A stretch of DNA of 64,000 nt from a virus. The stretch lies in the IMG/VR virus record IMGVR_UViG_3300025137_000027, positions 12,869 to 76,868 of that record; one strand, given 5' to 3'. A program made the position numbers and the translations under genes. Positions 4,101 through 22,403 of this stretch are shown in pieces. Each line of letters starts with the position of its first letter. Position 1 is the first letter of the stretch. The notes below the pieces were generated by a model. That model did not search any database. It worked only from the letters and a program-made list of their open reading frames with translations, and was not told where the DNA came from.

Positions 4101-4445
4101 GCTGCTGCAAACCAACAAGCTTTAATGGCAAACCGGTTTAGAGCAGAAGGGCGTGCACGGGCTATCGACAATCAAGCAAAGCAACAAGCTAAAGCGCGTT
4201 ATGATACGATGGCTTACCAAGGAAGAGCAGTTCAAAACGATTTACGTAGCAAATACCAAGATGATATGGTAGGGTTTAATAATCAGAAGGCTATGCTTGA
4301 TGCTCAAATCAAACAACAACCTCTGAACGTACTAGCTTCTAGCACTCAAGACTACCTAAAAAACATTTATGCGCCTAACTTAGCAGCAATGTTTGAATCG
4401 CAAGGCCGGCAGTACGGCACAAACTACACTGAAGAAAATACATAA
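1110..4445 (+). CDS. Ejection/cargo protein with glycoside hydrolase family 19 (lysozyme/chitinase-like) domain
   Basis: KESGG and GDGYKYRGRGLVQVTGKANY...LVDNPDLL are GH19 signature motifs; remainder is Ala/Gln-rich coiled coil and Gly-rich hydrophobic segments; ATGA overlap with the upstream gene. Confidence 0.85.
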   Translation: MSKKKMTPAQVAEKIARFIAKQEETLKTYPVGPLGNTAKRNLEKGKKALAALQGKNEEMRMAMQPQGQAAMPSQQMALGGDLVSALPAASGAGTASSITPAQQSMIDSLSSQYGMSPAIAAAVASVTQKESGGSGTKAENNYSNTSNAAIRGVNTRFARKFKDMPDAELTKLKANPEAFFNYVYDDATGNSAEGDGYKYRGRGLVQVTGKANYKRVSQAVYGDDRLVDNPDLLLDDATAGAAAAYFAAESGKGVKGYVDFDLSTPNPSPEQIQQVLNGSYAVVASGGTLSKTEAQDSAKMAKRYEQFNKSMATMQAFAGVNVPNSQGSNEASAQNTNGSNAVAPQTQRVQEPQVSIPEELDDNKLFELAASDKRTLDFMQRNNVTTSDLNKALAGEYVDIPNRAAFDGLVRKVASDYTTSRNSAIAQTQASRTKDKTGDSIGWSESLGISRERYKELASEAEDEFPDQALAYIPGPEGTEGSFRVDITSPMGSARVVTDRPEFTGMQAKINYDNFKAGGEDFLERGIEMTDAVKAGRDEFADTFMKPALAMGLGAAALAPGAIGLGGLSMGQTGLAAQAVGRQFLSGQVFNPAIAGGGINYAGALGSAAVAAQMTSGVMRTAGDFGLTDRQNAFEVAMDPDLSALQKAQYFTEIGLELSPALFESPTAIRNIFRGKPSDFPGSRSQFLMARRAGLNKADDASALVDETQDAFRAVQTNRGSFKNTAASAEQKALAAETKATNSPTKANKTAATKARAKAETAKANDAQALRNQQSAGAFRNNAVGRAGVADDELNLFNKRYNAAREPYSFGSTGVLSNTGKLIPAAVSAAPMLANLATNPAQNTPENVRAVSPTIVDPQIQANQIEQPVSDPNQVPTRDGSGTTPGGGTREGVAPLPVRGVEEVASVLPTKEIQTASPEMMQVNMPKMNALQAVPAMASLGSAAIQRRALNAMQGPQRPIETDIPQFAYESNIQSTLDDIRNATNTAARGTNLPQQAAAANQQALMANRFRAEGRARAIDNQAKQQAKARYDTMAYQGRAVQNDLRSKYQDDMVGFNNQKAMLDAQIKQQPLNVLASSTQDYLKNIYAPNLAAMFESQGRQYGTNYTEENT

Positions 4446-8900: not shown

Positions 8901-11900
8901 TACAAAACAGGCTTCTTCACCCCAAAATCCAGGTTCTAATCCCCCTCAAGCTCAAGATGGAGGAGGAGAGTTTAGCGTAAATCAAGCTCCACAACAGGTT
9001 GTTACTGAGCCGGGCATTGGGTTTCCTGAGCCAGCAGGGTATACTGGGGATGTGCCGACTGCTCCCGCTAATGTGGAACTTCGCGAGACACTGCCAGGAG
9101 AAAACCCTACACGTAATACGGTAGTCTCTGACGTGACAACAGTACAATTTCAATTTACAAATGCGAATAATAGTACAGAGGAAAATAAAGGTAGTACGAT
9201 TAATGACAAGTACTTAGCCGGACTAAAGAAGGTTATTGCAGGGCTACCTATAGGCACTGTAATAGAAGCTAGAGAAGGAGAATCTAATGGGAGAATTGCA
9301 CTACGAGCAGATAAAACTCTTTTAGCAGACATTAAAATTCAAGAGTTTTCTCAAGAGGTGCAAGCGGAGTTAAGGCTGGGAAAGACAGTCGCACTAGTAA
9401 CAACATCAGAAGTTAGTCGAGGCTTTGTGGGAGGCGAAACACTTTGGGAAAACAATAATGGAGTAAGGGTTAGCGCGAATCAGAAAAACGACTTTCCAAC
9501 AGAGGACTTAGTTAGAGAGGTATTACCGAATGGTGTAGAAGATATCAAAGGCATGAATTTAGTGCCTTCTAATTCTAACAATTTACTGCCTATAGCAGGG
9601 GTAGAATCTATGGGGATTCCTGGTGAAATGGTTACGGATCCAAAGTTTGCAGGTAATTTATTGGTTTCTACTGTAGATGCTTTAACTAAAGAAGAAGCGT
9701 ATCACTTTGTGGAACTCTCGCCAATGACATACGAAAGTTCTACCCAATTGGTAGACTTAGTAGATGCATTTAATCAATTTGTTCTTAGCCCAAACTCTAT
9801 GAGTCCTAGTCAAAACGATCTTCTTAGAAAGTTCGCAGAGGCTTCACAAATAGATTTGCAACAACCCGCAGACGAAGTTTCTAAGGCTGTTGCGTTAAAA
9901 CTTCGACGGATTATACAGGGCGCAGAGTTCTTAAGTGAGCAAACAAAGAAACTAAAAAATAACCCTAGGATTAAAAGGCCGTTACTTGCTGTGGAGCCTT
10001 TGGGTTCAGGGAGGGACGGAATTACTTTGGTGGCTTTACTGCAAGGAGATACGTATTATTCCCATGACAAAGAGGGGAATCGACAAGGCCCCGGTGCGGA
10101 AGCTATTGCAAGTTTTATAACCAAGCGTCCTGCAAACGTTACTCAAGAAGGCACTACAGTGTACCCAGATGGTAAAGGGAATTTTGATGTTTTTTCTACT
10201 TTGGAAATGGTCCAGAAGCAAGGAAAATTTGTGTATCGTGCGCCTTTTGTAGTAGACGGCAAAATTTATAACCGGCAATTTGCAAAGGTAGAGCTAAGCA
10301 TGAACCCTTTGGTTCCTGTTCCTACTAAATTTAAAAGATTAGAAGAGACACCCGAACCTGCTGGCAATACATCTTCTGAGGTTGTAATTGAAAAAAATAC
10401 GCAGTTTGATCCAGGCAACTATGATCCGAATAAGTTTGGTCTTGACGCAGACTACTTGCCATCTAGTTCCCAAGAGAGTACCGACCCAATGGAACGCGCA
10501 GGGGCTTTGTATGAAGTTCCAGGACTGACTTCTCGTCAGTTGCGTGACGGGATTAACTTCAGTACAGGAATGATGGCACGAGCGTTTTCTACTCACATTC
10601 GAACGAAAGACCGCAGTGTACCTATTTCAAGTGATTACCTGCGACGTTATGTGAAAGCCAACTTAGAAAATAATCTTGCATACTATAAGTCTCTTAAACA
10701 AGAGGGCTTTACTGTGAAAGTAGTTGAAGCACATGAAGCCTATCTCAGCTCTGAAAACTTCAATCCTTTAATGGATTTGGCTATGGTTGAGCTGCTGCAA
10801 CAAGCAAAAGACACAGTCGTAGGTCAGGGCGATTTGAATAAGGCGCTCGAAAACATCCGGGATAGAGCGGCAAATTCTGAAATGTTAGATGATGCAGAGC
10901 AAGCTGAACGGGATGCAAATCCTATGGCTGCGTTTGATGAAAACTTTGCTTTTGGAGTAAACCCTAAAAGCACTTTGCGGTTAGAGTCTAAGCTTTTGCT
11001 TATGGGCTTAGTCGATGAGCGTGGTACAACCGGGAAGTCTTTTGGTCTAGCTGGACGTAAATTTTTGAACAACACAGATCTTTTAGATAAGCTATCTGCT
11101 GTGCTTGCAGGTGTTGCGCCTAGCTATATTAAAGTTAAAGAACGCTTAAAAAAATACACTAAGACTTATCCTCAGTTTCAGTCTGTTCTAGATATAATGA
11201 CGGATACTTATGCAATTAATAGCATACCTCCGGGTTTAAAAGCAACCTCTACTGCTAAAGAGTACGCTGAAATTCAAAACCGTGCTTTGTCTGTCCAAGA
11301 CATGATTCGCAACCAGTTTGTAGTCTTTGCAAACAAAGAGGTTACAACTTATGACTCGGTTAAAATTGTAGACGTTACTGCTACACAAGCAAGGGACATC
11401 CAAATTTGGAACAGCAACTCCCGTAATATGCGGGAGCATGCAGGAAACGATATTCGTTCAGCTTTGATTGAACAAGAGTTCTTTGATCTTGATGGTGCGA
11501 TTAATAAGCCGAAGTTTAAAAACCTTTACGATCAAATCGTAGGAATTTCTGAGTTGCCAGAATCAGACCAAGCTGCTAAATTTTCTTTAATTCTTGAAGA
11601 TGAATTAAATATTTCAGTAACGCCTGATGCTTTAACAAGTAAAAACTTGACGGACAATGAAAAGGGTGATAGAATATTTCTTGGGGTAGAAGATGCATTA
11701 AGGAAAGGAGAAGCGGGAACTGCTGGGATTGTGGGGCGTTTTAAAACAGCCTTAAAAGATTTAAGCACGTCAGATTTAACTTTAGAAGAAGCATTAAGCT
11801 CTGGGTCACAAGCGGGTCGAGCGGTAAAAGACTTTTTTGTAGGGTTAGCGGATTACCGTGAAAACTTTATTCAAAAAAGTAGTAAAGACGGGGACAATAA

Positions 11901-14900
11901 AACTCGGTATCAATACAGTGCGCCTAAACTGGTGCATCAGATGCTAAGAGAAATCAAGACAGCAGCTGTAGAAAATCCAGCTTCGGTTCTTTTAGGAAAG
12001 CGTTTTGCACAACTTAGCGCAGAAAACCGTCGCTTGATTGAGTTGACTTACTTAAGTGGCATTAAAAAGGGAAATAAAGGAAAGGAACGAAACTTTCACG
12101 GCATGCAAGTGGGTGACAATGTTTTAGCCCAACTTGCTTTTTACGGCAATCGAAACACATATAAACAGCGGGATGCAAACGGGGAGGCTATAATAATATC
12201 AAAATTTTTGATGCCTACCCTAGCTGATAAACAAACAATGCCGATTTTGCAAGCCCCTGCTTTAAGTGCTAAGCAGGCTGGTGTTGTTTTAAACGAAGAG
12301 GTATCTGAAAAGTCTTGGAAGACTCTAACGTTTAAAGACGTAGTGCCTAACGTAGCTGGTGCTTATGAAACAATTCTTAAAGACAGCGTTGATCTTGAGA
12401 TAGATCGTATTATGCGTATCCAAGCGGGAAATACAGAGGGCATGACTGCAGCTCAACGAGTAGCAGTAGGATTTGTAATGGTTCCTTCCTTAAACGGAGT
12501 AGCTGAAACCTTTATGGAAGGTAAAATCAAACGCGCGGACTTCCGAGCAGAAATTCATAGCAAAGCAGTAAGGGTATTTGAAGAAGCGATGAACGAAGAT
12601 ATGCAGCACATGCTTCGTGAGACAGAGGGTACTATCTGGAATCCTACAGATAAAGAGGGGGTTGAAACTATAGGTGAGCTATTTCACTTTAACGGGTCTA
12701 AAAAGAAAAGTCCTGTTAAGGTTCATGTTGCTCCAACAGCTAATCTTCAAAAAGGAGGCAGGCACATAGTAGCATTTGTAGCGTTTTTAGCTAAGTATGC
12801 TATGGATAGCATGAACGTTCGGACAAGTGTTATTATGGACACTATGGGAGATCCTGGGGCATTTGTAAAAACAGATAAAGAGACTGGTAAAATTAAACCT
12901 GCAAAAACTGCTACTAATTTAGGAAAGCGGTTTGCATCTCTTATTGCCCCTGGCGCGGCAATACCCTATGTCACATACAATAATCGAAAAGGTATTCCTG
13001 TAGATAGCCAAAAGGTAAACTTTCTGGTTATCCCTGCTCGCGTAGTATCTAAAGCCGGGCATTATGAATACTTGAAAAAGATAGGACAGTCTGCAGATGA
13101 ATTGTCTATGCAGGAAAATTACGATAGCGCAGATGCTGCAGAGTATACAACTGTGGAAGAGCATCTGGGTATACTCTATGCGAAAGGTGAAATAACTCGT
13201 CTGGAAATGGACGATGTTTTAAGTAAAATAGCAAACAACATAAAGCTAACCAATGAGCTAGATTGGTTTCAACCCATGAAGCCGGTAACTACTGCGCGTG
13301 TGGGGGATCATATGCTTTATGTTAAGAGTGCAGCCTTCCCGTTAGTGCCTCAACTTACTCAAGGGACAGAGCTAGACAAGCTACGGGTATTTATGGAGAC
13401 TAATAATGTCCAACGTGCTGCTTACGACAGTGCTGTAAAGTTGGGCAACGAGTGGTCGGATGTTAATGACACGTTAGCTACTGAAGCCCAAAAAATGATT
13501 CCGGTTCACGTAGGAGACACGGTTGAAATTAATGTAGACGAGTTAAAAAAGCGTGTTATAACTGGCGTCGATCGTAAGTACATGCGGATACAACAGGAAG
13601 TCCCGAGCAGTACTACAAATGAGAAGGTTCACGGATCGCAGGTAGCTAAATTGCTTCTAGTTGATATAATCAGTTCTAAATTTATTTTAAATGGAGAATC
13701 GGTAAAAGGGGCTAAGATGTATCAGGCTTACTTGAAGGCTCGTAGGGAAGAGCAAAACGCTCGTTTAGAAGTATTTGCTGCTCGATACGGGATGGAGTAC
13801 GATAGCGACACGGGTATATCGCACACTCCAGAGTCAAGGAAGAAGTTTGCCGAGCGTATAACTGAAGAAGGTGTTGACCGTTCCTATGATGCTAACGAAT
13901 TAGCGCATCTTTACTTTGACCAGGAAACAGTACGTTTCTTGACACCTTTAGAGGCAGGCCCAAGTTCAGAACGCATTGAAAACCTCGTCAAAAGTATAAT
14001 TTTTAAGGAAGTATACGAGCCGAGTATAGAGGGCTTTAGTGGACCTATACGACCGGAGGTAGGCATTAAGTCTATTGACGAGGATTTAGTTAATAGCGGA
14101 GACATTATGTGGGTTATGAAAGGAGGCGTGCGTCTCTTTGATGGCAATAAACTGAAGGTTGCTCAGGAAGGGCAGATGGATCAGATTATCATGCCTTGGA
14201 AATACAAAGCCAGTCTTGAAAAATATATGGATGATGATGGCAATATCAATGCTGATGACTTACCTCCAGAGTTGCTCAAGGCTTTTGCCTATCGTATTCC
14301 AAATCAACGAAAGAGTTCTTCTGCTGCATTCGAAATTGTAGGGTTCTTGCCCAAGAGTTACGGAGATACCTTAATTGTTAATGAAGAGCTGGTAGGACGT
14401 ATTGGACAAGACTACGACATCGATAAGATGTTTGGGTTCTTGTATTCAATTGAACAAACAGAGGATGGTTCTATAGAGGTTATTAGGAGCGAAGAGAAAG
14501 CTAGTGCGCAACGACGGGTTGCGGCTGCACGCAACGAACAAGTTGATATCTATCTCGCCTCTATGGACCCTCAGGACAATGCGGTTGAAAAGGCTATACA
14601 CGCTCCTGTAACAGACGGCTATGCGGTAGCGTTAGCAGATCAGATGGATGGACTACTGCATGATGATGCAGTTTTGGGGCTACCTATGAGCCAGTCCTAT
14701 AACTCTCGTAAAGCAGATGCAGCTCGAAGTGCGAAAAGTTCTATTGGAGTATTTGCAAAACAGCATGTTCTTCACGCGCAACTTCAACAGTCTCTTGAAA
14801 CAAGAGGTTACGGAGGTATTAGTTTTCGAGAGGGAGAGTTTATTACAATTCTTTCAAGCCCAAATGCGAAGAAACCTACAGAGAATATAGCTTTAGGGAA

Positions 14901-17900
14901 CATAGGAATTCATGACGCAGACTTTAAACTTGAGTATAAAAATCCTCCAGCAGCAGGCAACCGTAGCGATCAGTTTAGCCGATTGTTAAATCATTCTGTA
15001 GATAACGAAAACAACGGGTTGTTAAGCAAGCTAGGAATTACACAAGATACTTGGCCTGTATGGACTGGCTTAACGCATATGGGGTACAACCAAGAGACTA
15101 TAGCTTTTCTTGTAGCTATGCCTGCAGTTCAACAGTACTTAGCTTTAAAGAAAAAGACGGGACGTTTAGCTAGTACAGGAAGTACTATAAAAATTAGTAC
15201 GCTGATAGCACAGGAAATAACAAAGCTGCAGGGAGATTCTAAAAATCCTATAGATATTAAGACTTTACCAGAGTTAGATAAGGAGTCTATGCTGGATATT
15301 ATTAAAGGCGCGTCTGAGAAAAGTGAGAGAGAAATTTCTCAAATGAATCTGAGAGCTTTACTAGCTGTTGAGAAGCTAGAGGTTATGGGTAGAGATCTGA
15401 GTCGTGTACAAAACTTTATGGGCTTAGACACTAACCGACCAAAAACATTAATTGGATTGCAGGTGGCTTTGTCTAAAATGAAAAACCCTCAAAGTGACAA
15501 AGAAGGGACTACATTCTCTGTACTAGACGCTGTATCAGCCGCAGACATGACAGTTTCAGGGCAGATTTCGAATCTAGTTAAAAGGACTGCAACAGGCTTG
15601 TTGAATATTCAAAATAACCTGCTGCCGCAAAATATTATTTCGTCTTTAGTAACTGATTTTGAAAAAGCAGGTCTAACTCAATCTGTAGAAGAATCTATTG
15701 GTGACTTGATAAAAGGTGTCAAGAGTTACAATTACTCTTTGTTTACAGCTAAACTAGCGGGTAGGAGTGCAGAAGAAGTAAGAGCAGAAGCTCACAATCT
15801 TGAGACGGGCGGTATTGCAACTCTTTTAATTGAGGCACGTCAGAATCCTGAAATAGCTAATAATTCTTTTATTAAGCAGTTGATTGCTGTAAAGGCACCA
15901 GGTTCATACCCACACCTAGAGTTTCCAGGAGACCGAGAGCTAGAGGGAAGTTCTACAGAACTACATCGAGGCTTTTTAAGTTTACTACGTAGTGCTGATC
16001 CTGAAGTAAAGAAGTTTGGGGAGTACTTGGTTGTATATGCTTTGGCTACTAGTGGAGGTAAACTCAAAGCAAGAGGCTATTTAAAGTATGTTCCGGCAGA
16101 ATACTTACAATCTAAAGGGCTAGGAGATATTGTCAATATTCCTAATATTGCTGAAAGCGTGTCTACTGATAAAGTCATAACTGAGGTAATTCGTCATAAT
16201 GATACTTTAGCTCCTTACTACAACAGTAAGGCAGACGCGGGCATATTTACCTCTAACGAAGTATTACACCTAGACGTTGAAGCAGCATCCTTTAGAGGGC
16301 ACGTTCGTGTTAAGAATGCTTTATATGCTCCTTCTGATACTATGGGGCGCATGGTTAGACATAAAGGAAAAGACGTTGAAGCTATTCCTTTGATACTGGT
16401 GAGTAAATTAGGCGATTATTTGACAGATGAGTACACGTCAGATTTTCAGCCAGCTAATAAGAAACCTATAGTTAAGAGTCTAAAAGGTAATACTACAGCT
16501 CCAGCACCTGATGCGCCTCCCCAAGGAACTATGGATCAAAGCTATGAACCAACCCGTAACGTAGCGGAAGAGTACGACCCAAATTTTAATCCGGTTGTTC
16601 CCATGAATATGGGTTTGTCGGGTAAGGTTAATGATGAGATAGTCCGGTCTGAGAATCCAAACAAAATGCCAATGGGCATTAAGGAGTTCTTAAAAGTTTC
16701 TGAGTTACGTAATAACCCTTTTATACAAGAGTTAGCGCAGACTCAAGAATCGTTACAACCTGAAGATAGAGTTACGGTAGTTGTTAGTGAGGACTTGCCA
16801 GGAAAGGGTATGTATAATGCTGGTACTAATACTGTTACTATTCGTCAGGATATGGTAAACGATATTCGTACTGTAACTCATGAGTTGGTCCACGCATTTA
16901 CAAGCCTATCTATTAAGGTAGCGCAAGGCAAGGCAAAAATATCTGACCCTAACAAAAAGGCTAAGATGGTAGCTGCAGTGAACGAGCTGCAAAAACTTCT
17001 GAATATTGCACGTACTCCAGAGTCCTTGCAAAAGATGGGATTAACTTTTGCGGGTCAACAACAATCTGCAAGAGGCTACAGGGCTTTTAAGAATCAGAGA
17101 GATGGAAAGGCCTTGACTGCAGAAGAGCAGCTTGATTTGGATTTCTTCAAAGAAAACTTAGATAAGTACTATGCTTTTGTAAGTCTAGAAGAGTTCGTAG
17201 CGGAGTCTTTTTCTAATAAAAAGTTTGCTGAGAGGATTGCAAAGCTTTCTTTGAATAGAAATGAAACCTTTATCGATAGGTTTATGCAGGCTGTAAATAA
17301 AGCGTTAATCGCTTTAGGCATAAACTTTGGTAAGGACACTAAGTTCTTAAAGGAGATTTACACGCTGAGTATGGGAATCGTGGACATCCAAACAGGAGGT
17401 CAGATTGGGTTGATTCCCGGGCAAGAGATAGCGTCTAGTGATTTGATTGACGCAGTTACGGCTGTGGATGTAGGGGGACAAAACCTACAAGGACTAGATC
17501 AGATGAAGGACTACAAGGAGAAGCGTATCCGACAGTTTGAGGAACTTAAGAGTCGGTATAACACTAATAGGGAGTTTGTACGGAGGGTGGAAGCTAGGCT
17601 GGTACAAGAGCGTAAGGATTTGAAGGTGCTTACTGATGATAGTGTAGAGATAACGCCTGACTACTTCCTGGCTGTTGGTCAAAGAGAACTTGATTTTGCT
17701 CGTAGGACTATCGAGAACGTTGACTCTACCGACCCGCAGATTACCATGGCTCTGAGTGCTCTAGAGAATATTTATAGTGTGGTCGAGTTCTACGATAAGA
17801 GTAGAGAGATTTTGAAAGATCCTGCGCTGTTAGATGTTGCTACTGCGCTACGTAGGGAAGCATCGGAATTGAAAGATAATTATTTGGATAAGGCTCGGGA

Positions 17901-20718
17901 CATAACACGTCGTGGTGCTAGACAAGAATTAGAGACTCTAGGCGTTAACGTAGATGCTAATAGCTTTGAGACTTTACAGCAGGTTGGGTGGATGAAGTCT
18001 TTCTTTATGGATGCGTCTCGTCAGGGCACGGTAGAACTTTCTTTCTTAGATAAGATTGTAAGAGATGCTAGCCAATTGCAGCGGGTACAGTTTAATGCTC
18101 GTGCTAAGCGGTATATGGAAAATAGTAAGAAGTTTAAAAAGACCTCTTACTTTAACGAACACGGCTGGAATGGCATGGTTGAACTAGATGCGCAAGGGAA
18201 TCCTACAGCTAATATGCTTACCATGCTTAGCGGTTCTTATGAATCGGAGTACAACCTTAAGCGTGCTACGTTAAACAATTCAAAAGCTTTCTATGATTGG
18301 AAGCGAAGTGTTACGGGACGTATTGATATCTCTGCTATGTTTGATATCTCTGGTACAGAGGTAAAGCGTAAAAACAATCCTAAGTACGTAGAGTATCTGA
18401 ATAAAACGTATGGCGCAGCTGGTGCAGCAGAATTTTTGCAGCAGCAAGAAACGATGGCGCAGGAGTATGTAGACGCGCGTACCAGTGAATTTGATACGCT
18501 GGAGCTTACCCTAGGGGAAAACGCAACAGATGCAAAAGCTTTATGGGAGGCTAAGAATAATCCTATCCAAGCTTACAAACGTGCTGAGGGTAAAGGGGGT
18601 CGTTTTATTAAAGGCGCAACAAGTAGATTCTTGTTAGACATTCCTTTACGCACTGTAAAGGGTAAGGCTACGAATTACTATGATGCTAGGTTTGATCAGC
18701 TTCAGTCTGAGCCTGATGCATTGGCTTTCTATAATGACTACCGCCAGCAGATAAAAGAGATGATGGCAATGTTGCCAGCACATAAGATGACACGTGAAGC
18801 GCACCTTGTACGTAATGGACTTTTTATTCCAGCAATTGCGAAATCATTGACGAACGATTTATTTAAAGCAGAAGGGCTGGCAACCAGGATGAAGCAGCTG
18901 CCTGATAATATTCGTAGCGCGTTTACAATTGACCCTGAGTACAATATTAATAAACTTATTGACCCAGTAACTGGACGTCCTCGTCAAGAGCTTCCTACTT
19001 ATTTCTTGGGACAGGTAGATCCTGAAACTCAGGACTACGATATGGATAGGACCTTCCTTGCTTTTACTATGATGGCTACCACTTACGATAGTAAGAATGC
19101 TATTGAAGATAAAGTTCGGATGACGAAAAGTGTTATGAGCAATGCGCGTGTAGGACGCGTAAAGAAAGGATTAGCAGAAAGTGTTTTAAATAAATTAGGG
19201 GCAGAGTCTCCTGTAGGGTATGCTGATGAGGCAGCTAGAGCAACTACTATGAGAGTAGTAAATACTGTAGTAGATACTTTCTACGGTTACCAAAGTAATC
19301 AGGATATTACTTTTGAAGCAAATGAAAATTTGTTCACTAAAAAGCAAAAGGAAAAACTAGACGAGTTGAAAGACCAAAAGCTTGCTGCAAAAACGCAAGA
19401 AGAAAAAGACTTAATTCAAAGTCAAATAGAAGAAGCTACTCCTCAAGTAAGTGTGTATAAAGGAATTCGAGGGGTACAACAGTTTATCCAAGCCAAAGGC
19501 ATGGCATGGAACGTTCCAGCAGCTATTGTGAATATGGCGTTTGGAGCCATAAGTGTCTTCAAGCACGCTAGTGGTCAGCGTGACTTTACTGAAGCAGACA
19601 CCCGTAAAGCTACAGGTATTATGCTAAGTAGTTCATTGAATAATATGACCTTAAATACAGGCTTAACGCAGAATAAGGAAGCGTTGAAGACTCAAAATGC
19701 TATGATAAGCTTTGATTCACTGAAGGACTTTACAGAGATGCGGCACGACCAACGCAAGTTTAAAACTCAATCTGGTGAAACTAGCATAAACCAGGCAGAA
19801 TCTCAGGGCTTTAACAAGCTACGTATGTACGAAATTCAACGTAGCTCAGAGTATTTTGTGTATGGGCAGGTCATGATTTCTGTATTGCTACATGAAAAAG
19901 TCGAGGGTAAGTCTTTGTGGGAGCACATGGGTGGAGATGGGATTATTGATATTGATGGTTATCGTCCGGGCGAAGAGAAACACTTGGCTTTGATGAATAA
20001 GATGGACCAGATCAATAAACGCATACACGGTAACTACGACCCTTCGAGTCCTATCGCAGTGAAGAAGACAATGATTGGGCCTCTTCTTATGCAGTTCCGT
20101 AGTTGGTTGCCTGAATCCGTAGCAGCTAGATTCGAAAAAGAAAAGTTTGATCCGTATTTGCAACGAGATGTAAAGGGCACGTATCAAACGATGTTCTTTA
20201 GTAGTGCTATTCGTAAGCACCTAACTGCAATGCTTCCAATGTTGGTGCCGAGCTGGGCACGTACGAAAGGTATGAATGAGATGAGTGCAGAGATCTCAGC
20301 AGTGGACCAAGAAAACATTAGAAAGTTCGCGGCTAGCTTGCGTCAGTACTTACAAATAATGATTCTTATTTCTGTCTTACGTGCCTTGAAAGATGATGAA
20401 GACGATAAAGAAGCGTTAATGATTCTGAATGCAAGTCTGAATGTAGTGGACAGAGCTGAAAATGACTTAGCTTTGTTCGGTCGTCCTGGGGCATTCTTAG
20501 ATATGACTCAAGGTGATTTCTTAGCTGCAATTGGCGCAGCTAGTGAAGTTGAGAAACTTGGAGAAGCTGTAGTTAAAACAGCGCAAGGAGACGGAATAAT
20601 TGAAACCGGTGTTTACGCTGGTAAGTCACGAATGTGGCATCACTTCCAGAAATTAGTACCACACTTAGGAGCAGTACAGCGGATAGCTAACAACTTAGAT
20701 CGCGAACTAGGCTCTTGA
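5986..20718 (+). CDS. Giant (4910 aa) virion RNA polymerase-containing polyprotein with zincin-like metallopeptidase domain
   Basis: YRIPNQ...IVGFLP...GDTLIV...GQDYDIDK (crAss vRNAP catalytic region, DxDxD at 14410-14424); HELVH at 16879-16893 plus downstream EEFVAE; N-terminal Gly/Ala-rich hydrophobic cargo-like region. Confidence 0.92.
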   Translation: MAEENQEPVNLGDLGTASSSDIRKALEGQPSPVEAKDAVDSETPTETPDAPPASPGQDITGFLTNSSNNIVQKENGSFKFINPYDNNLDVDLDQFETQRRRVSEGSALSGILNGVEGLEESFTYTSLEDTAKRSQEAQGVINKMKNGMTQLVADTGINVAQGFGALLYGVPSAIANGDITKLYDNSLANNLDKGTEFLDEFYKIKRGGDQSKGQKVANFLFDDLAGGASFVMGAIATEMAFSALTAATFGGAAPAQAAVTAGLVARGTRLAQKTLQGGKALISGSLVDDALRASRSLGAAATREGAASALQAAAQTARTPMALQAAARVGRQLITGASMESGMEARHMLNASVENQKQQYEELNGKGSFSEEMAGDFREEISGYADGVFGANMALVGASNMLMFPKLFGVGLRKGMSTSKFIDTSKLSQKARARLAKNLGVVEGKLPRLVDAARGNTLGRIAGRTGTVGRVTAANTKNALYEGFIEEGGQGAISRSTEDYISKRYDPKGVKDTVRFADSFLEGLKGSYTTKDGFKEIGIGMLLAFTGVPMYARNQSTTPSSNSETAGKPEKKWKWQMMGGYADQRKALIARDKKMDAIMNLSEKHGDVGGILRAEIANMNRQNVLQKEQDASIQEGRFKEAKDAEAEMIFSHAATKVVTGRYEQSIAEAQQIMDEMSDEELREQLGPSAKNMTEEDLRAHRNKAMETYRSRMDRARQAYDRAGTVYRGEDADIHTGVAHMLYMTKEKDAREKSIAGEIADAIENMNEGDVLDLVRMQADLNMTESTTNSFLDLINKYQNIDKQLNTKLERKIIKNIDPEKADQRQKDIASAQQAREILAEQMETMLETMATAQNVERGKYDFDLSTFDRLGDLHRAIRRQQGVEFQEADLKALFEDMYAVAQDRLNLIGNYNDFIKPGGVERFESKMIGSIERLAKMSPEQRQEARQQAAAEEDADADSAVAEEIVKAEEAATKQASSPQNPGSNPPQAQDGGGEFSVNQAPQQVVTEPGIGFPEPAGYTGDVPTAPANVELRETLPGENPTRNTVVSDVTTVQFQFTNANNSTEENKGSTINDKYLAGLKKVIAGLPIGTVIEAREGESNGRIALRADKTLLADIKIQEFSQEVQAELRLGKTVALVTTSEVSRGFVGGETLWENNNGVRVSANQKNDFPTEDLVREVLPNGVEDIKGMNLVPSNSNNLLPIAGVESMGIPGEMVTDPKFAGNLLVSTVDALTKEEAYHFVELSPMTYESSTQLVDLVDAFNQFVLSPNSMSPSQNDLLRKFAEASQIDLQQPADEVSKAVALKLRRIIQGAEFLSEQTKKLKNNPRIKRPLLAVEPLGSGRDGITLVALLQGDTYYSHDKEGNRQGPGAEAIASFITKRPANVTQEGTTVYPDGKGNFDVFSTLEMVQKQGKFVYRAPFVVDGKIYNRQFAKVELSMNPLVPVPTKFKRLEETPEPAGNTSSEVVIEKNTQFDPGNYDPNKFGLDADYLPSSSQESTDPMERAGALYEVPGLTSRQLRDGINFSTGMMARAFSTHIRTKDRSVPISSDYLRRYVKANLENNLAYYKSLKQEGFTVKVVEAHEAYLSSENFNPLMDLAMVELLQQAKDTVVGQGDLNKALENIRDRAANSEMLDDAEQAERDANPMAAFDENFAFGVNPKSTLRLESKLLLMGLVDERGTTGKSFGLAGRKFLNNTDLLDKLSAVLAGVAPSYIKVKERLKKYTKTYPQFQSVLDIMTDTYAINSIPPGLKATSTAKEYAEIQNRALSVQDMIRNQFVVFANKEVTTYDSVKIVDVTATQARDIQIWNSNSRNMREHAGNDIRSALIEQEFFDLDGAINKPKFKNLYDQIVGISELPESDQAAKFSLILEDELNISVTPDALTSKNLTDNEKGDRIFLGVEDALRKGEAGTAGIVGRFKTALKDLSTSDLTLEEALSSGSQAGRAVKDFFVGLADYRENFIQKSSKDGDNKTRYQYSAPKLVHQMLREIKTAAVENPASVLLGKRFAQLSAENRRLIELTYLSGIKKGNKGKERNFHGMQVGDNVLAQLAFYGNRNTYKQRDANGEAIIISKFLMPTLADKQTMPILQAPALSAKQAGVVLNEEVSEKSWKTLTFKDVVPNVAGAYETILKDSVDLEIDRIMRIQAGNTEGMTAAQRVAVGFVMVPSLNGVAETFMEGKIKRADFRAEIHSKAVRVFEEAMNEDMQHMLRETEGTIWNPTDKEGVETIGELFHFNGSKKKSPVKVHVAPTANLQKGGRHIVAFVAFLAKYAMDSMNVRTSVIMDTMGDPGAFVKTDKETGKIKPAKTATNLGKRFASLIAPGAAIPYVTYNNRKGIPVDSQKVNFLVIPARVVSKAGHYEYLKKIGQSADELSMQENYDSADAAEYTTVEEHLGILYAKGEITRLEMDDVLSKIANNIKLTNELDWFQPMKPVTTARVGDHMLYVKSAAFPLVPQLTQGTELDKLRVFMETNNVQRAAYDSAVKLGNEWSDVNDTLATEAQKMIPVHVGDTVEINVDELKKRVITGVDRKYMRIQQEVPSSTTNEKVHGSQVAKLLLVDIISSKFILNGESVKGAKMYQAYLKARREEQNARLEVFAARYGMEYDSDTGISHTPESRKKFAERITEEGVDRSYDANELAHLYFDQETVRFLTPLEAGPSSERIENLVKSIIFKEVYEPSIEGFSGPIRPEVGIKSIDEDLVNSGDIMWVMKGGVRLFDGNKLKVAQEGQMDQIIMPWKYKASLEKYMDDDGNINADDLPPELLKAFAYRIPNQRKSSSAAFEIVGFLPKSYGDTLIVNEELVGRIGQDYDIDKMFGFLYSIEQTEDGSIEVIRSEEKASAQRRVAAARNEQVDIYLASMDPQDNAVEKAIHAPVTDGYAVALADQMDGLLHDDAVLGLPMSQSYNSRKADAARSAKSSIGVFAKQHVLHAQLQQSLETRGYGGISFREGEFITILSSPNAKKPTENIALGNIGIHDADFKLEYKNPPAAGNRSDQFSRLLNHSVDNENNGLLSKLGITQDTWPVWTGLTHMGYNQETIAFLVAMPAVQQYLALKKKTGRLASTGSTIKISTLIAQEITKLQGDSKNPIDIKTLPELDKESMLDIIKGASEKSEREISQMNLRALLAVEKLEVMGRDLSRVQNFMGLDTNRPKTLIGLQVALSKMKNPQSDKEGTTFSVLDAVSAADMTVSGQISNLVKRTATGLLNIQNNLLPQNIISSLVTDFEKAGLTQSVEESIGDLIKGVKSYNYSLFTAKLAGRSAEEVRAEAHNLETGGIATLLIEARQNPEIANNSFIKQLIAVKAPGSYPHLEFPGDRELEGSSTELHRGFLSLLRSADPEVKKFGEYLVVYALATSGGKLKARGYLKYVPAEYLQSKGLGDIVNIPNIAESVSTDKVITEVIRHNDTLAPYYNSKADAGIFTSNEVLHLDVEAASFRGHVRVKNALYAPSDTMGRMVRHKGKDVEAIPLILVSKLGDYLTDEYTSDFQPANKKPIVKSLKGNTTAPAPDAPPQGTMDQSYEPTRNVAEEYDPNFNPVVPMNMGLSGKVNDEIVRSENPNKMPMGIKEFLKVSELRNNPFIQELAQTQESLQPEDRVTVVVSEDLPGKGMYNAGTNTVTIRQDMVNDIRTVTHELVHAFTSLSIKVAQGKAKISDPNKKAKMVAAVNELQKLLNIARTPESLQKMGLTFAGQQQSARGYRAFKNQRDGKALTAEEQLDLDFFKENLDKYYAFVSLEEFVAESFSNKKFAERIAKLSLNRNETFIDRFMQAVNKALIALGINFGKDTKFLKEIYTLSMGIVDIQTGGQIGLIPGQEIASSDLIDAVTAVDVGGQNLQGLDQMKDYKEKRIRQFEELKSRYNTNREFVRRVEARLVQERKDLKVLTDDSVEITPDYFLAVGQRELDFARRTIENVDSTDPQITMALSALENIYSVVEFYDKSREILKDPALLDVATALRREASELKDNYLDKARDITRRGARQELETLGVNVDANSFETLQQVGWMKSFFMDASRQGTVELSFLDKIVRDASQLQRVQFNARAKRYMENSKKFKKTSYFNEHGWNGMVELDAQGNPTANMLTMLSGSYESEYNLKRATLNNSKAFYDWKRSVTGRIDISAMFDISGTEVKRKNNPKYVEYLNKTYGAAGAAEFLQQQETMAQEYVDARTSEFDTLELTLGENATDAKALWEAKNNPIQAYKRAEGKGGRFIKGATSRFLLDIPLRTVKGKATNYYDARFDQLQSEPDALAFYNDYRQQIKEMMAMLPAHKMTREAHLVRNGLFIPAIAKSLTNDLFKAEGLATRMKQLPDNIRSAFTIDPEYNINKLIDPVTGRPRQELPTYFLGQVDPETQDYDMDRTFLAFTMMATTYDSKNAIEDKVRMTKSVMSNARVGRVKKGLAESVLNKLGAESPVGYADEAARATTMRVVNTVVDTFYGYQSNQDITFEANENLFTKKQKEKLDELKDQKLAAKTQEEKDLIQSQIEEATPQVSVYKGIRGVQQFIQAKGMAWNVPAAIVNMAFGAISVFKHASGQRDFTEADTRKATGIMLSSSLNNMTLNTGLTQNKEALKTQNAMISFDSLKDFTEMRHDQRKFKTQSGETSINQAESQGFNKLRMYEIQRSSEYFVYGQVMISVLLHEKVEGKSLWEHMGGDGIIDIDGYRPGEEKHLALMNKMDQINKRIHGNYDPSSPIAVKKTMIGPLLMQFRSWLPESVAARFEKEKFDPYLQRDVKGTYQTMFFSSAIRKHLTAMLPMLVPSWARTKGMNEMSAEISAVDQENIRKFAASLRQYLQIMILISVLRALKDDEDDKEALMILNASLNVVDRAENDLALFGRPGAFLDMTQGDFLAAIGAASEVEKLGEAVVKTAQGDGIIETGVYAGKSRMWHHFQKLVPHLGAVQRIANNLDRELGS

Positions 20719-20721
20719 CAC

Positions 20722-21990
20722 ATGAAAAATAAAATAATCTTTAAAACGCTTAGCCTACTTTGGTTAGGCGTTTTTCTTGGCTATAATAATTATAGTCAAT
20801 CTGTCCCCTTTATAGAAGGAATAAACTTATTATTTCCTGGGTGCACTGATCCTATGGCGCTCAACTACAATGAGGAAGCTACTGAAGATGATGGCACCTG
20901 CGTCTATTCTATAGGCCCAGATCCAGTCATACTTAATATAACTGTTACAGATGAAAGCTGCCAAGAGTACGAGACAGGAGTCCTGTCTTCTTACGTATAC
21001 GAGGCTACTATAGTAAATATAGGAAACGAAGCAGTTACAAACTTTTGCCTTAGCGACTTCTTAGGTACCACGTTTAACTGTTTTAACGGGGTCTCTAATC
21101 TTGCTGTTTGGATTCAACCCGGGGATACTATAACTGTGACGGGTAACATCAATAGTATAGGCACATGGGTAGAAGGACAAGGAAACTATATGACTGTAAC
21201 GAGTGTTCCTGGGGAGGTTATTACAGGTAATAATAACTTTGTTTTTTATATGCCTGAGGGAGTGGATTGCGTAGAGCCTGCTGATCCTGAATACTGCGAT
21301 ACTCTACTGGTCTACGTGACTGAAATAGACACGCTTATTGAGTATGTAGAACTTCCGGCTGATACAGTGACTGTGCTGCAGCTAGACACGTTGTATATTC
21401 CTTGGGAGTATTATTTCTACGATACGGTATACGTAGATGTTTTTGACACTATTTACGTGACAATGCTAGATACTGTAATTATTACAGAAATAGATTTACA
21501 GTATGTATATGAAACAGATACTATTCTTGTACTACAAGTAGACACAGTTCTTGTGTCTCAAATAGATACTCTCTTTCAGGAGGTAGTAATCTATGAATAT
21601 ATCTACCAGACGGATACAGTACTCCAAGTAGTATACGATGAGGTTTTAATAGACTGCGGGACCGGTCTACCTTGTATAGGAGGTTTCTCAGGCATGACGT
21701 GTGAATCTGTATTCATACCAAATGCGTTTTCTCCAAACAACGATGGCATTAATGATACTTTCTATGTAGTATCTGAATCTTATGACTGCTGGTTAGAATG
21801 GCAGTTAATCGTATACAATAGGTGGGGTACTGCAATTTGGAGCAGCGATGATCCGCAAGCCCAGTGGTATGGACAAGCAGAAAATCAAATGCATTACGTT
21901 TCAGATGGCGTGTATGTCTGGACTCTGCGGGCAAAGGGAGCCACAGGTAACGCGTTAGATCTATCAGGGTCAGTTACGGTCTTCCGTTGA
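20722..21990 (+). CDS. Secreted protein with T9SS type-B (gliding motility-associated, CHU_C-like) C-terminal sorting domain
   Basis: N-terminal signal peptide; GCTDPMALNYNEEATEDDGTC motif; CARDB-like segment; DT[VIL] repeats; C-terminal VFIPNAFSPNNDGINDTF...IVYNRWG...W.G...DGVYVW...GSVTVFR. Confidence 0.88.
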   Translation: MKNKIIFKTLSLLWLGVFLGYNNYSQSVPFIEGINLLFPGCTDPMALNYNEEATEDDGTCVYSIGPDPVILNITVTDESCQEYETGVLSSYVYEATIVNIGNEAVTNFCLSDFLGTTFNCFNGVSNLAVWIQPGDTITVTGNINSIGTWVEGQGNYMTVTSVPGEVITGNNNFVFYMPEGVDCVEPADPEYCDTLLVYVTEIDTLIEYVELPADTVTVLQLDTLYIPWEYYFYDTVYVDVFDTIYVTMLDTVIITEIDLQYVYETDTILVLQVDTVLVSQIDTLFQEVVIYEYIYQTDTVLQVVYDEVLIDCGTGLPCIGGFSGMTCESVFIPNAFSPNNDGINDTFYVVSESYDCWLEWQLIVYNRWGTAIWSSDDPQAQWYGQAENQMHYVSDGVYVWTLRAKGATGNALDLSGSVTVFR

Positions 21991-22257
21991 CGCATTGGTT
22001 ACACGTCCGCAAATCATGTGCTCTGAGATTAGCACGTGGTCTTCTCCGTCGATAGGAATAATTAGACCTTTAGATTCAGGATGTACCATAACAGTATCGC
22101 CAACTTTAACATTGCGGCAATCAGGTCCGACTGCTAGAACGGGCAATACATAAGAAGGTCTAACAGTAGTCTGTTCCGTAAGGATAATACCAGACTTAGT
22201 CTTCTCGTGCTTTTCGTGAGGCAGAATCACGTAGTTGTGTGTGGGTATAAAATTCAT
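21970..22257 (-). CDS. groES: Co-chaperonin GroES (Cpn10)
   Basis: PTHNYVIL...EKTKSGIIL...VLAVGPD...VKVGDTV...IDGEDHVLISE pattern; 95 aa. Confidence 0.88.
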   Translation of the reverse strand: MNFIPTHNYVILPHEKHEKTKSGIILTEQTTVRPSYVLPVLAVGPDCRNVKVGDTVMVHPESKGLIIPIDGEDHVLISEHMICGRVTNASTEDRN

Positions 22258-22268
22258 TGCTGATAAAT

Positions 22269-22403
22269 TTAGCGTCCTTGCCCTCTGTAAGATTTCTTAT
22301 AGAGCTTGGAGTTATTACTTTTAGATGTCTTTGTTTTAGCGTGTACACCTGGACGCTTTACACTTTGCTTAGTTGCAAATGTGCTAGTCATATTCTTTGC
22401 CAT
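22269..22403 (-). CDS. Small basic protein (44 aa), not in the ORF track
   Basis: Manual translation MAKNMTSTFATKQSVKRPGVHAKTKTSKSNNSKLYKKSYRGQGR*; fills the gap between ung and groES on the operon strand. Confidence 0.7.
   Translation of the reverse strand: MAKNMTSTFATKQSVKRPGVHAKTKTSKSNNSKLYKKSYRGQGR

What the first reader, a model, noticed from the sequence alone, without database searches (positions are those of the whole stretch)
20722..21990. Phage-encoded type IX secretion cargo: a lytic phage addressing a protein to the host T9SS/gliding apparatus
Seen: Sec signal peptide, a GCTD...DDGTC Cys motif, a CARDB-like domain, a repetitive stalk and a complete type-B CTD (21709-21990). The gene starts 3 nt after the vRNAP stop, at the end of the virion operon. 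Established: type-B CTDs (SprB-like) route proteins through the Bacteroidota T9SS with a PorP/SprF partner, and gliding/T9SS mutations confer phage resistance in Flavobacterium. No PorP/SprF-like gene is visible in this window. Inference: the phage hijacks the host T9SS to display its own surface protein, or jams the translocon/receptor (superinfection exclusion, altered adhesion or motility of the infected cell). This is the best candidate for an undescribed system here.
Basis: partly seen in the sequence, partly recalled or inferred. Interest (0 to 1): 0.88.

Follow-up and report, generated by a model that had tools for sequence, protein, structure and literature searches.

The report
Phage gene for T9SS surface protein
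An uncultured marine crAss-like phage encodes a very acidic, stalked, non-enzymatic protein with an export signal and a genuine type-B type IX secretion tag, so it probably uses its flavobacterial host's secretion machine to put this protein on the infected cell; the idea is already published for the other tag type and has never been tested.

Summary
The 422-aa ORF is real. It has a Sec-type signal peptide, one Cys motif, an Ig-like beta-sandwich, a 123-residue acidic DT-repeat stalk and a complete type-B CTD (Pfam CHU_C 60.7 bits against a cut-off of 27; TIGR04131 is 0.7 bit under its cut-off).

It is not an assembly artefact. An independent 19.5-kb contig spans the locus, and relatives sit in several phage lineages.

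The passenger core is narrow: 26 clusters among 1.84 billion representatives. It was not found in 401 Flavobacteriales genomes. The Cys motif and the CTD are shared with host-type surface proteins.

The phage genome has no PorP/SprF gene. Candidate host MAGs carry about 28 type-B cargo genes for 7 shuttles, so an orphan cargo on a shared shuttle is plausible.

Upstream of the window lies a conserved four-gene envelope cassette: type-A CTD fibre, outer-membrane barrel, membrane coiled-coil protein and thioredoxin-like protein. In distant relatives the type-B gene abuts this cassette. However, only 1 of 10 cassette phages has any CHU_C gene, so the type-B gene is an accessory.

The "phage hijacks T9SS" idea is already published (Bellas 2020; de Jonge 2019). 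This scan noted the same family on other DNA before. I class it as a new variant of a known kind; its function is untested.

The parts
5986..20718 (+). 4910-aa ORF containing the crAss-type virion RNA polymerase module. The gene under study follows it after 3 nt.
   Evidence: ORF list. PDB 6VR4 (phi14:2 gp66) matches aa 2374-2825, E 2.8e-16. Junction sequence read.
20722..21990 (+). Gene for the 422-aa exported type-B CTD protein (P0001), stop codon included.
   Evidence: The identical protein is on 3 contigs, and 507 relatives have E<=1e-3.
20722..20796 (+). Predicted Sec signal peptide, aa 1-25. Cleavage would leave Gln26 at the new N-terminus.
   Evidence: Heuristic: 3 Lys, then a hydrophobic core of KD 2.1. 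110 of 120 relatives have such an N-terminus and 87 of those have a small-residue/Gln junction. AF2 models a helix at aa 4-18. SignalP was not run.
20842..20901 (+). Cys motif C-T-D-P-x-A-L-N-Y ... D-D-G-T-C (aa 41-60). This short module is also common in host-type giant surface proteins.
   Evidence: Pattern scan, single copy in the window. There are 55-64 matches per genome in two Flavobacteriales MAGs, inside ORFs of 1000-4400 aa. Eight copies occur in the phage's own type-A cargo.
20914..21276 (+). Ig-like beta-sandwich domain, aa ~65-185.
   Evidence: AF2 pLDDT about 90. Foldseek gives generic Fn3/Ig/CARDB-type hits, with 2kl6/3idu at TM 0.51-0.57 by target. Pfam gives only DUF7507 at E 0.096.
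21283..21651 (+). Acidic DT-repeat stalk, aa 188-310. The period is about 8 residues, and there is no Lys or Arg.
   Evidence: DT spacings are 8 (six times), 10, 11, 12 and 16, with 25 D/E and 0 K/R. AF2 pLDDT is about 30 as a monomer. There is no DNA tandem repeat. D/T columns are nearly invariant in 112 relatives.
21655..21675 (+). Conserved Cys linker C-x-T-G-L-P-C (aa 312-318) between stalk and CTD.
   Evidence: C318 is invariant. C312, T314 and G315 are conserved in at least 90% of 112 relatives.
21712..21987 (+). Type-B T9SS C-terminal sorting domain (CHU_C), aa 331-422, reaching the last residue.
   Evidence: PF13585 60.7 bits against cut-off 27. A six-frame search of the genome gives 64 bits. 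TIGR04131 gives 34.3 bits against cut-off 35. AF2 pLDDT is about 90.
21970..22257 (-). Convergent GroES-like co-chaperonin gene. It overlaps the 3' end of the type-B gene by 21 nt and neighbours the type-B gene in three crAss-like lineages.
   Evidence: phrog_3188, E 1.3e-14. Synteny is shown in L002-L005, L007, L009 and L010.

Best explanation
The gene encodes an accessory phage protein that is exported by the host and displayed on the surface of the infected flavobacterial cell.

Inferred steps:
1. It is transcribed with the virion operon.
2. The Sec system exports it, and signal peptidase I leaves an N-terminal Gln, following the Bacteroidota Q-rule.
3. It folds and forms disulfides in the periplasm.
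4. The C-terminal type-B CTD is read by the host T9SS and by a host PorP/SprF-type shuttle that many orphan cargoes share. As with cellular type-B cargo, the CTD is not removed and keeps the protein on the outer membrane.
5. The acidic 8-residue-repeat stalk then holds an Ig-like domain and a host-like Cys motif away from the surface.

Most likely effect (inferred, least certain): the protein re-dresses the cell surface and competes with host adhesins for shuttles. This would mask or displace phage receptors linked to the gliding/T9SS apparatus and so limit superinfection and loss of progeny on infected cells and debris.

Shown here: the domain architecture, its conservation, its restriction to phages, and its genomic context. 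Not shown: export, the partner, and the function.
For: Signals:
- CHU_C scores 60.7 bits at the extreme C-terminus.
- The signal peptide and Gln junction are conserved across the family.
- The mature passenger has 47 D/E and no K/R.

The locus is real and expressed DNA is plausible:
- The identical protein lies on 3 contigs.
- A 19.5-kb contig from another study spans 19802-22400 at about 97.7% identity.
- Contigs from an RNA library cover the gene, and one bridges the junction with the polymerase gene.

The family is phage-borne:
- It occurs in IMG/VR loci of three crAss-like lineages and two large phages.
- The core (aa 65-329) has 26 clusters in 1.84 billion representatives.
- The core gave one marginal hit in 401 Flavobacteriales genomes.
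- An ESM Atlas CHU_C cluster is labelled 100% viral, and BFVD holds relatives.

The gene is mobile and accessory:
- It is 77-81% identical in phages whose terminase is 41% identical.
- It is only 57-74% identical in close relatives whose neighbouring genes are 76-97% identical.

An orphan cargo is plausible:
- Candidate host-lineage MAGs have 27-28 CHU_C genes for 7 PorP/SprF genes.
- Only 13 of the 80 cellular loci with the most similar CTDs have a PorP/SprF gene nearby.
- In F. johnsoniae three orphan type-B cargoes share one shuttle (PMC12618676).

Link to phage receptors: gliding/T9SS mutations give phage resistance in Flavobacterium (PMC9804748; bioRxiv 10.1101/2020.10.02.323337).
Against: - Nothing has been tested experimentally, and the host is unknown.
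- TIGR04131 falls 0.7 bit under NCBI's cut-off.
- Type-B CTDs pair with their shuttles with strong specificity (PMC12618676). The phage CTD is only 33-44% identical to the best cellular CTDs found, and 52% at best for another family member.
- A position at the end of the late operon is unusual for a classical exclusion gene.
- The RNA evidence consists of contigs from an RNA library, which can contain DNA.
- The stalk could not be modelled, so the 'stalk' geometry is an inference.
Confidence: 0.5

Rival explanations
1. The protein belongs to a phage-built envelope apparatus together with the conserved upstream cassette: type-A CTD Cys-repeat fibre, 12-strand-like outer-membrane barrel, inner-membrane coiled-coil protein and exported thioredoxin-like protein. 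The phage barrel, not a host shuttle, would anchor it. Alternatively, the set acts at lysis like a spanin pair, with the coiled-coil protein as the inner part and the barrel as the outer part.
For: - In distant crAss-like relatives the type-B gene lies tail to tail, 0-3 nt from the cassette. It does so in 8 of 67 further cassette loci.
- In a third lineage a 219-aa signal-peptide, DT-stalk and C-x-T-G-L-P-C protein sits inside the cassette next to the barrel. There the cassette is followed by an endolysin (phrog_894) and a holin (phrog_3427).
- The barrel model resembles outer-membrane barrels at Z 14-15.
- The barrel family was not found in 201 Flavobacteriales genomes.
Against: - Only 1 of 10 cassette-bearing phage records, 7 of them at least 99% complete, has any CHU_C gene. 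The barrel therefore has a role that does not need a type-B cargo.
- The barrel shows no similarity to PorP/SprF: PF11751 gives no hit and hhalign gives probability 0.3%. Its sequence ends in the barrel and lacks the Cys-x-Cys tail of SprF (PMC12635249).
- In this phage the gene lies about 22 kb from the cassette.
- Two large phages carry family members with no barrel found, although their records are incomplete.
- No endolysin of the L012 type was found in this genome.
Confidence: 0.17
2. The protein is a decoy that jams the machinery. It would dock on the T9SS translocon or on SprF-type shuttles and block export of host adhesins and enzymes. The surface-exposed passenger would have no function of its own.
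For: - The phage encodes no shuttle.
- Type-B cargo stays bound to its shuttle (PMC9143113; PMC12618676).
- Earlier notes of this scan report phage genes that encode only a signal peptide plus a CTD (e1-5829737, unchecked here).
Against: - A 300-residue passenger with an Ig-like domain, conserved Cys residues and a conserved stalk is kept across the family. That is more than a plug would need.
- In a lytic cycle, late expression leaves little time for a block of secretion to matter.
Confidence: 0.12
3. The protein is a virion fibre or receptor-binding protein. The 8-residue repeat would form an intertwined trimeric beta-helix as in phage fibres. The CTD at the tip would bind host PorP/SprF-type proteins from outside, mimicking their natural ligand.
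For: - The gene lies in the virion operon.
- The stalk has an 8-residue period with alternating hydrophobic residues, and the monomer model fails there.
- Ig-like domains are common on virions (own knowledge).
Against: - A cleavable Sec-type signal peptide with the Gln rule is conserved in the family. Tailed-phage virions assemble in the cytoplasm.
- There is no N-terminal domain resembling a virion attachment module.
- There is no PHROG structural family hit.
- The position of the gene varies between lineages.
Confidence: 0.06
4. The gene is a host-derived passenger with no function in the phage, or an assembly chimera.
For: The CTD and the Cys motif are host-like modules.
Against: - An independent contig spans both junctions.
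- The frame is intact and conserved in many phages.
- The core was not found in the cellular genomes sampled.
- The CTDs of the family cluster apart from 78 cellular CTDs in a quick tree (2 label changes, SH-aLRT 88).
Confidence: 0.02

Closest known systems
Orphan type-B CTD cargoes of Flavobacterium johnsoniae (Fjoh_1123, Fjoh_1720, Fjoh_4934) and their shared shuttle Fjoh_1677 (Paillat et al. 2025, PMC12618676)
   Same: Both have a Sec signal plus a C-terminal type-B CTD, are non-enzymatic and adhesin-like, and have no PorP/SprF gene next to the cargo gene. Use of a shuttle encoded elsewhere is the mechanism proposed here.
   Different: This one is encoded by a phage, not by the cell. Its passenger (Ig-like domain plus DT stalk) was not found in the cellular genomes sampled. 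The shuttle is unknown, and the CTD is only 33-44% identical to the best cellular CTDs found.
SprB/SprF gliding adhesin and carrier pair (PMC12635249; PMC9143113)
   Same: Both have a type-B CTD and a surface-anchored, elongated, repeat-rich passenger. In both cases the CTD is expected to stay bound to an outer-membrane carrier.
   Different: SprB is far larger (own knowledge) and is encoded with its carrier SprF. The phage has no SprF/PorP homologue. Whether the phage protein is moved on the gliding track is unknown.
'Cryophage' T9SS type-A cargo genes (Bellas et al. 2020, PMC7468147)
   Same: This is phage-encoded T9SS cargo, variable between phage variants, and proposed to hijack the host system and affect competition or superinfection.
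   Different: Those proteins carry type-A CTDs on enzymes and a PA14 protein. This one carries a type-B CTD, which in cells needs a specific shuttle and is not cleaved, on a non-enzymatic stalked protein.
T9SS sorting-domain proteins beside crAss-BACON ORFs in crAss-like contigs (de Jonge et al. 2019, PMC6949934)
   Same: These are crAss-like phages with T9SS-tagged proteins near the head/structural region.
   Different: Those are gut phages with BACON repeats. No type-B CTD is described and the function was left open.
UniProt A0A7S9STS8, 'Gliding motility-associated C-terminal domain-containing protein' of the marine crAss-like Virus NIOZ-UU157 (BFVD hit)
   Same: It is a predicted-structure relative (Foldseek E 9.9e-15, 406 aa) in a marine crAss-like virus and already carries the automatic CTD name.
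   Different: It has only an automatic annotation. Neither of the two papers I found naming that virus was opened, and neither is about this gene by its title.
Phage proteins that block the phage's own receptor, such as the T5 Llp lipoprotein acting on FhuA (own knowledge)
   Same: The proposed effect is the same: a phage-made envelope protein prevents superinfection and loss of progeny on debris.
   Different: Llp is a small early lipoprotein that uses the Lol pathway. This protein sits in the late operon, is T9SS-routed and is much larger. No receptor is known.

Membership tests
T9SS type-B CTD cargo (Pfam CHU_C PF13585 / NCBIfam TIGR04131) | CHU_C domain above Pfam's gathering score | tested here: met
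   60.7 bits against cut-off 27, aa 331-408. A six-frame search gives 64 bits.
T9SS type-B CTD cargo (Pfam CHU_C PF13585 / NCBIfam TIGR04131) | TIGR04131 above NCBI's curated cut-off | tested here: inconclusive
   34.3 bits, E 1.9e-8, against cut-off 35. That is 0.7 bit short.
T9SS type-B CTD cargo (Pfam CHU_C PF13585 / NCBIfam TIGR04131) | The domain lies at the extreme C-terminus and is complete | tested here: met
   The domain runs to residue 422. The terminal G..T.FR block is conserved in the family. AF2 pLDDT is about 90.
T9SS type-B CTD cargo (Pfam CHU_C PF13585 / NCBIfam TIGR04131) | N-terminal Sec signal peptide | tested here: met
   Heuristic only: a charged n-region, a hydrophobic core and a Ser|Gln junction, conserved in 110 of 120 relatives. 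SignalP was not available.
T9SS type-B CTD cargo (Pfam CHU_C PF13585 / NCBIfam TIGR04131) | The five motifs A-E that are needed for secretion of F. johnsoniae type-B CTDs (PMC12618676) | not tested
   The motif sequences are only in a figure that is not held. The invariant blocks seen here (PN.F.PN.DG.ND, NRWG, W.G, DG.Y, terminal R) could not be mapped to them.
T9SS type-B CTD cargo (Pfam CHU_C PF13585 / NCBIfam TIGR04131) | A cognate PorP/SprF-type shuttle is available | tested here: inconclusive
   None is in the phage genome. Candidate host-lineage MAGs have 7 each for 27-28 CHU_C genes. The true host and partner are unknown.
T9SS type-B CTD cargo (Pfam CHU_C PF13585 / NCBIfam TIGR04131) | T9SS-dependent export and surface anchoring | not testable with these tools
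   This needs expression in wild-type and T9SS-mutant Bacteroidota.
PorP/SprF shuttle (PF11751), asked of the phage's 346-aa barrel at L102:10095-11135 | Sequence or profile similarity to PF11751 | tested here: not met
   There is no match at E up to 1 in the whole genome and no Pfam or NCBIfam family. hhalign against 12 PorP/SprF sequences from two MAGs gives probability 0.3%.
PorP/SprF shuttle (PF11751), asked of the phage's 346-aa barrel at L102:10095-11135 | Periplasmic C-terminal tail with a Cys-x-Cys motif, as in SprF (PMC12635249) | tested here: not met
   The sequence ends in a barrel strand with an aromatic last residue and has no Cys-x-Cys. The model has strands up to aa 344 of 346.
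PorP/SprF shuttle (PF11751), asked of the phage's 346-aa barrel at L102:10095-11135 | Outer-membrane beta-barrel fold | tested here: met
   AF2 pTM is 0.63. VIA gives Z 14-15 to EstA/NalP autotransporter barrels and to KdgM, NanC and Tsx. Foldseek gives E about 1e-6 to porins and FadL. The fold is generic and not specific to PorP.
CARDB domain (PF07705) | Pfam match, or a clear and specific structural match | tested here: inconclusive
   There is no PF07705 hit at E up to 1, and DUF7507 gives E 0.096. Foldseek to the CARDB structures 2kl6/3idu gives TM 0.51-0.57 by target, among many Fn3/Ig-like hits of equal rank.
crAss-like phage (Crassvirales-type) | Homologue of the phi14:2 gp66 virion RNA polymerase, plus crAss-type terminase, portal and capsid genes | tested here: met
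   6VR4 hits at E 2.8e-16. phrog_6681, 6547 and 11589 match at E 1e-95 to 1e-137. CheckV completeness is 96%.

The most novel reading that the evidence does not exclude
The type-B protein and the conserved phage cassette (type-A Cys-repeat fibre, phage-specific outer-membrane barrel, inner-membrane coiled-coil protein, exported thioredoxin-like protein) form one phage-built envelope apparatus. In it, a barrel unrelated in sequence to PorP/SprF would replace the host shuttle as anchor, or would act as the outer half of a spanin-like lysis device. Phages of Bacteroidota would then carry their own adaptor to the T9SS rather than merely borrowing it.
Probability: 0.12. Interest if true: 0.8.

Novelty: new variant of a known kind. 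Interest (0 to 1): 0.5.

Why it matters
T9SS and the gliding apparatus shape adhesion, polymer degradation and phage susceptibility in marine Bacteroidota.

A phage family of surface proteins that carries the type-B tag but no shuttle gives a natural test of how specific the pairing between type-B CTDs and shuttles is. It also offers a handle on how abundant ocean phages remodel the surface of infected cells.

The gene is widespread in seawater data sets: the stretch, or part of it, was found in runs of 14 studies. It can be tested in existing Flavobacterium genetics.

The concept is not new, only the tag type and the protein family are, and no function has been shown.

Tried and rejected
- The look-up of encoding contigs. 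The genomic context of the relatives on 113-323 kb contigs could therefore not be read.
- Complex prediction. The pairing of the CTD with the phage barrel, and a trimer of the stalk, could not be tested.

Searches that gave nothing useful:
- No PHROG family at a useful E-value for the protein.
- No DNA match in INPHARED. By protein there are only CTD-level hits, in two about 640-kb uncultured phage records and one 4.2-kb faecal contig.
- ESM Atlas search by features: no usable hit.
- Tandem Repeats Finder: nothing in the gene.
- The promoter and terminator scans are no better than shuffles.
- The L012-type endolysin was not found in this genome.
- No tyrosine integrase was found.

Searches with limits:
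It cannot exclude cellular full-length relatives. The 401-genome search with the core and the exhaustive representative search were used instead.
- The careful tree and the one-clade test did not finish, so only the quick tree is quoted.
- The RNA-library contigs have gaps at 20844-21017. I draw nothing from that.

Ideas rejected:
- The barrel as a PorP/SprF homologue.
- The barrel as a dedicated partner of the type-B protein.
Full report
**What is there.** The window is bases 12869-76868 of a 76,868-bp IMG/VR virus record that CheckV rates 96% complete. It encodes a terminase, portal and major capsid protein of crAss-type PHROGs, a family-A DNA polymerase and a GroES-like gene. It also has a 4910-aa ORF whose residues 2374-2825 match the solved virion RNA polymerase of Cellulophaga phage phi14:2 (6VR4, E 2.8e-16). 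No tyrosine integrase was found, while all 14 control genomes rang. The phage is therefore a marine crAss-like phage. The stretch occurs in seawater and viral metagenomes of 14 studies.

**The gene.** ORF 20722-21990 (+) gives 422 aa. It starts 3 nt after the stop of the 4910-aa ORF. It ends 21 nt inside the 3' end of the convergent GroES-like gene.

The protein has the following parts.
- **Signal peptide.** Three Lys are followed by a hydrophobic core and a probable Ser25|Gln26 cleavage site. Of 120 relatives, 110 have such an N-terminus, and 87 of those have a small residue followed by Gln. From my own knowledge this is the Bacteroidota 'Q-rule' for signal peptidase I substrates. The two exported cassette proteins named below show it too.
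- **Cys motif**, aa 41-60.
- **Beta-sandwich**, aa ~65-185. AF2 models it at pLDDT about 90. It resembles many Fn3/Ig-like domains, CARDB among them.
- **Stalk**, aa 188-310. DT recurs mostly every 8 residues, with 25 acidic and no basic residues. It is unmodelled as a monomer and is not a DNA-level tandem repeat.
- **Conserved C-x-T-G-L-P-C linker**.
- **CHU_C domain** to the last residue: 60.7 bits against 27. TIGR04131 scores 34.3 against 35.

The whole mature passenger has no Lys or Arg.

**Not an artefact.** The identical protein lies on three contigs. A 19.5-kb contig from a different study covers 19802-22400 in one piece at about 97.7% identity. Contigs from a metatranscriptome library cover most of the gene at 99% or more, and one of them bridges the junction with the polymerase gene. 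Such contigs show presence in an RNA library. They do not show a transcript.

**Who has it.** There are 507 relatives at E<=1e-3. The family is modular:
- most members add a ~170-aa Cys-rich N-domain after the signal peptide;
- some share only the stalk and CTD;
- a short form has the N-domain, a Pro-rich linker and the CTD.

Loci in IMG/VR show the gene in these settings:
- close relatives with the same synteny (L009, L010);
- distant crAss-like phages (L002-L005, L007);
- two large phages that have a prohead protease, an endolysin or a sigma factor nearby.

The gene is 77-81% identical in phages whose terminase is only about 41% identical. It is only 57-74% identical in close relatives whose neighbouring genes are 76-97% identical. 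It therefore moves between phages.

The core without the Cys motif and CTD (aa 65-329) finds only 26 clusters among 1.84 billion representatives. It gave one marginal hit in 401 Flavobacteriales genomes. An ESM Atlas CHU_C cluster of 57 members is labelled 100% viral. BFVD holds relatives, including one from the crAss-like Virus NIOZ-UU157 that is already named as a gliding-motility CTD protein.

By contrast, the Cys motif occurs 55-64 times per genome in two Flavobacteriales MAGs, inside giant ORFs. The nearest cellular CTDs are from Flavobacteriales. In a quick tree the family's CTDs cluster apart from 78 cellular ones, with 2 label changes and SH-aLRT 88 on a short alignment. One cellular CTD, 52% identical to two family members, lies inside the cluster. 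The protein is thus a phage-specific passenger framed by host-like surface modules.

**The missing shuttle.** No PorP/SprF gene is in the phage genome. In F. johnsoniae, type-B CTDs pair specifically with PorP/SprF shuttles, but three orphan cargoes share one orphan shuttle (PMC12618676). Type-B cargo stays anchored through PorP-like proteins (PMC9143113). The two MAGs with the best CTD matches have 27-28 CHU_C genes and 7 PorP/SprF genes each. Only 13 of the 80 cellular loci with the most similar CTDs have a PorP/SprF gene within the locus. Orphan type-B cargo on shared shuttles is therefore normal in this lineage, and a phage orphan could use the same route. The modest identity of the phage CTD to cellular CTDs (33-44%) leaves the partner open.

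**Context outside the window.** Bases 7960-11795 of the record (L102) hold four tightly packed genes:
- a 712-aa signal-peptide protein with eight copies of the same Cys motif and a type-A CTD (PF18962 27.7 bits, TIGR04183 23.9 bits);
- a 346-aa signal-peptide protein with no family;
- a 96-aa membrane plus coiled-coil protein;
- a 121-aa exported thioredoxin-like protein (weak hit).

The 346-aa protein models as an outer-membrane barrel: pTM 0.63, and Z 14-15 to autotransporter, KdgM, NanC and Tsx barrels. Its family has over 3000 members and at least 563 viral loci. It was not found in 201 Flavobacteriales genomes, although that search had no positive control.

Of 80 viral loci with the barrel, 77 have the type-A protein, 77 the coiled-coil protein and 76 the thioredoxin-like protein.

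The type-B gene abuts this cassette tail to tail in the distant crAss-like relatives and in 8 of 67 further loci. In a third lineage a 219-aa stalk protein sits inside the cassette, which is followed there by an endolysin and a holin.

However, only 1 of 10 cassette-bearing records has any CHU_C gene. The barrel also shows no similarity to PorP/SprF and lacks the Cys-x-Cys tail of SprF (PMC12635249). The type-B gene is therefore an accessory that tends to lodge beside the cassette. It is not an obligatory partner of it.

**Mechanism.** The best-supported reading is Sec export, T9SS transport via a host shuttle, and display of a stalked Ig-like head on the infected cell. Its effect on the surface is the weakest link. 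I favour masking of, or competition at, the gliding/T9SS-linked receptors, because mutations in those systems give phage resistance in Flavobacterium (PMC9804748; bioRxiv 10.1101/2020.10.02.323337). The rivals, given with odds in their own section, are a role within the cassette (anchor or lysis), a plain decoy, and a virion fibre.

**Novelty.** Phage-encoded T9SS cargo and the hijack idea were published for type-A CTDs (PMC7468147), and sorting-domain proteins were noted in crAss-like contigs (PMC6949934). I found no paper on type-B CTDs in phages, but only open-access papers and preprints were searched. Earlier notes of this scan describe the same family or theme on other DNA. I class it as a new variant of a known kind, of moderate interest.

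Noticed in passing
L102:7960-11795 (G000 record, just upstream of the window): A conserved four-gene phage envelope cassette: a 712-aa protein with 8 Cys motifs and a type-A CTD, a 346-aa outer-membrane barrel of a phage-only family with over 3000 members, a 96-aa membrane plus coiled-coil protein, and a 121-aa exported thioredoxin-like protein. It is present nearly intact in 76-77 of 80 viral loci.
   Followed up: partly
L012:4701-7910: In another phage lineage the cassette order is barrel, then a 219-aa signal-peptide, Cys-rich, DT-stalk protein with a short C-terminal piece, then the coiled-coil protein and the thioredoxin-like protein. It is directly followed by an M15 endolysin (phrog_894) and a holin (phrog_3427). 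This hints at a link to lysis.
   Followed up: partly
window 5986-20718: A single 4910-aa ORF carries the crAss-type virion RNA polymerase module (aa 2374-2825 match 6VR4) within a much longer protein than the 2194-residue solved chain of phi14:2 gp66.
   Followed up: no
L010:6001-7837: In a close relative the homologous gene reads in two or three frames (161 aa, 308 aa, and the last 32 residues in another frame). It may be broken or may contain assembly errors.
   Followed up: no
G001 and G002 (Flavobacteriales MAGs reached through L013 and L014): The short C-T-D-x-x-A-x-N-Y ... D-D-G-x-C motif occurs 55-64 times per genome, mostly in tandem, inside ORFs of 1000-4400 aa. It matched no Pfam family in the phage proteins scanned.
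   Followed up: no
L127, L132, L139, L156 (ORF on the minus strand right after the thioredoxin-like gene): Short-form type-B cargo of 302-315 aa: signal peptide, the Cys-rich N-domain of the long forms, a Pro-rich linker and the CTD, with neither sandwich nor stalk.
   Followed up: partly
L008 (G003, 162 kb, 52% complete) and L006 (G004): Family members of 534-545 aa occur in large non-crAss phages. They lie next to small ORFs of 121-140 aa that earlier notes of this scan call dockerin-like. No barrel cassette was found in these incomplete records.
   Followed up: partly
window 1110-4445: A 1111-aa protein in the virion operon has an endolysin-type domain at aa 32-361 (phrog_181). It is probably a virion-borne cell-wall hydrolase.
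   Followed up: no
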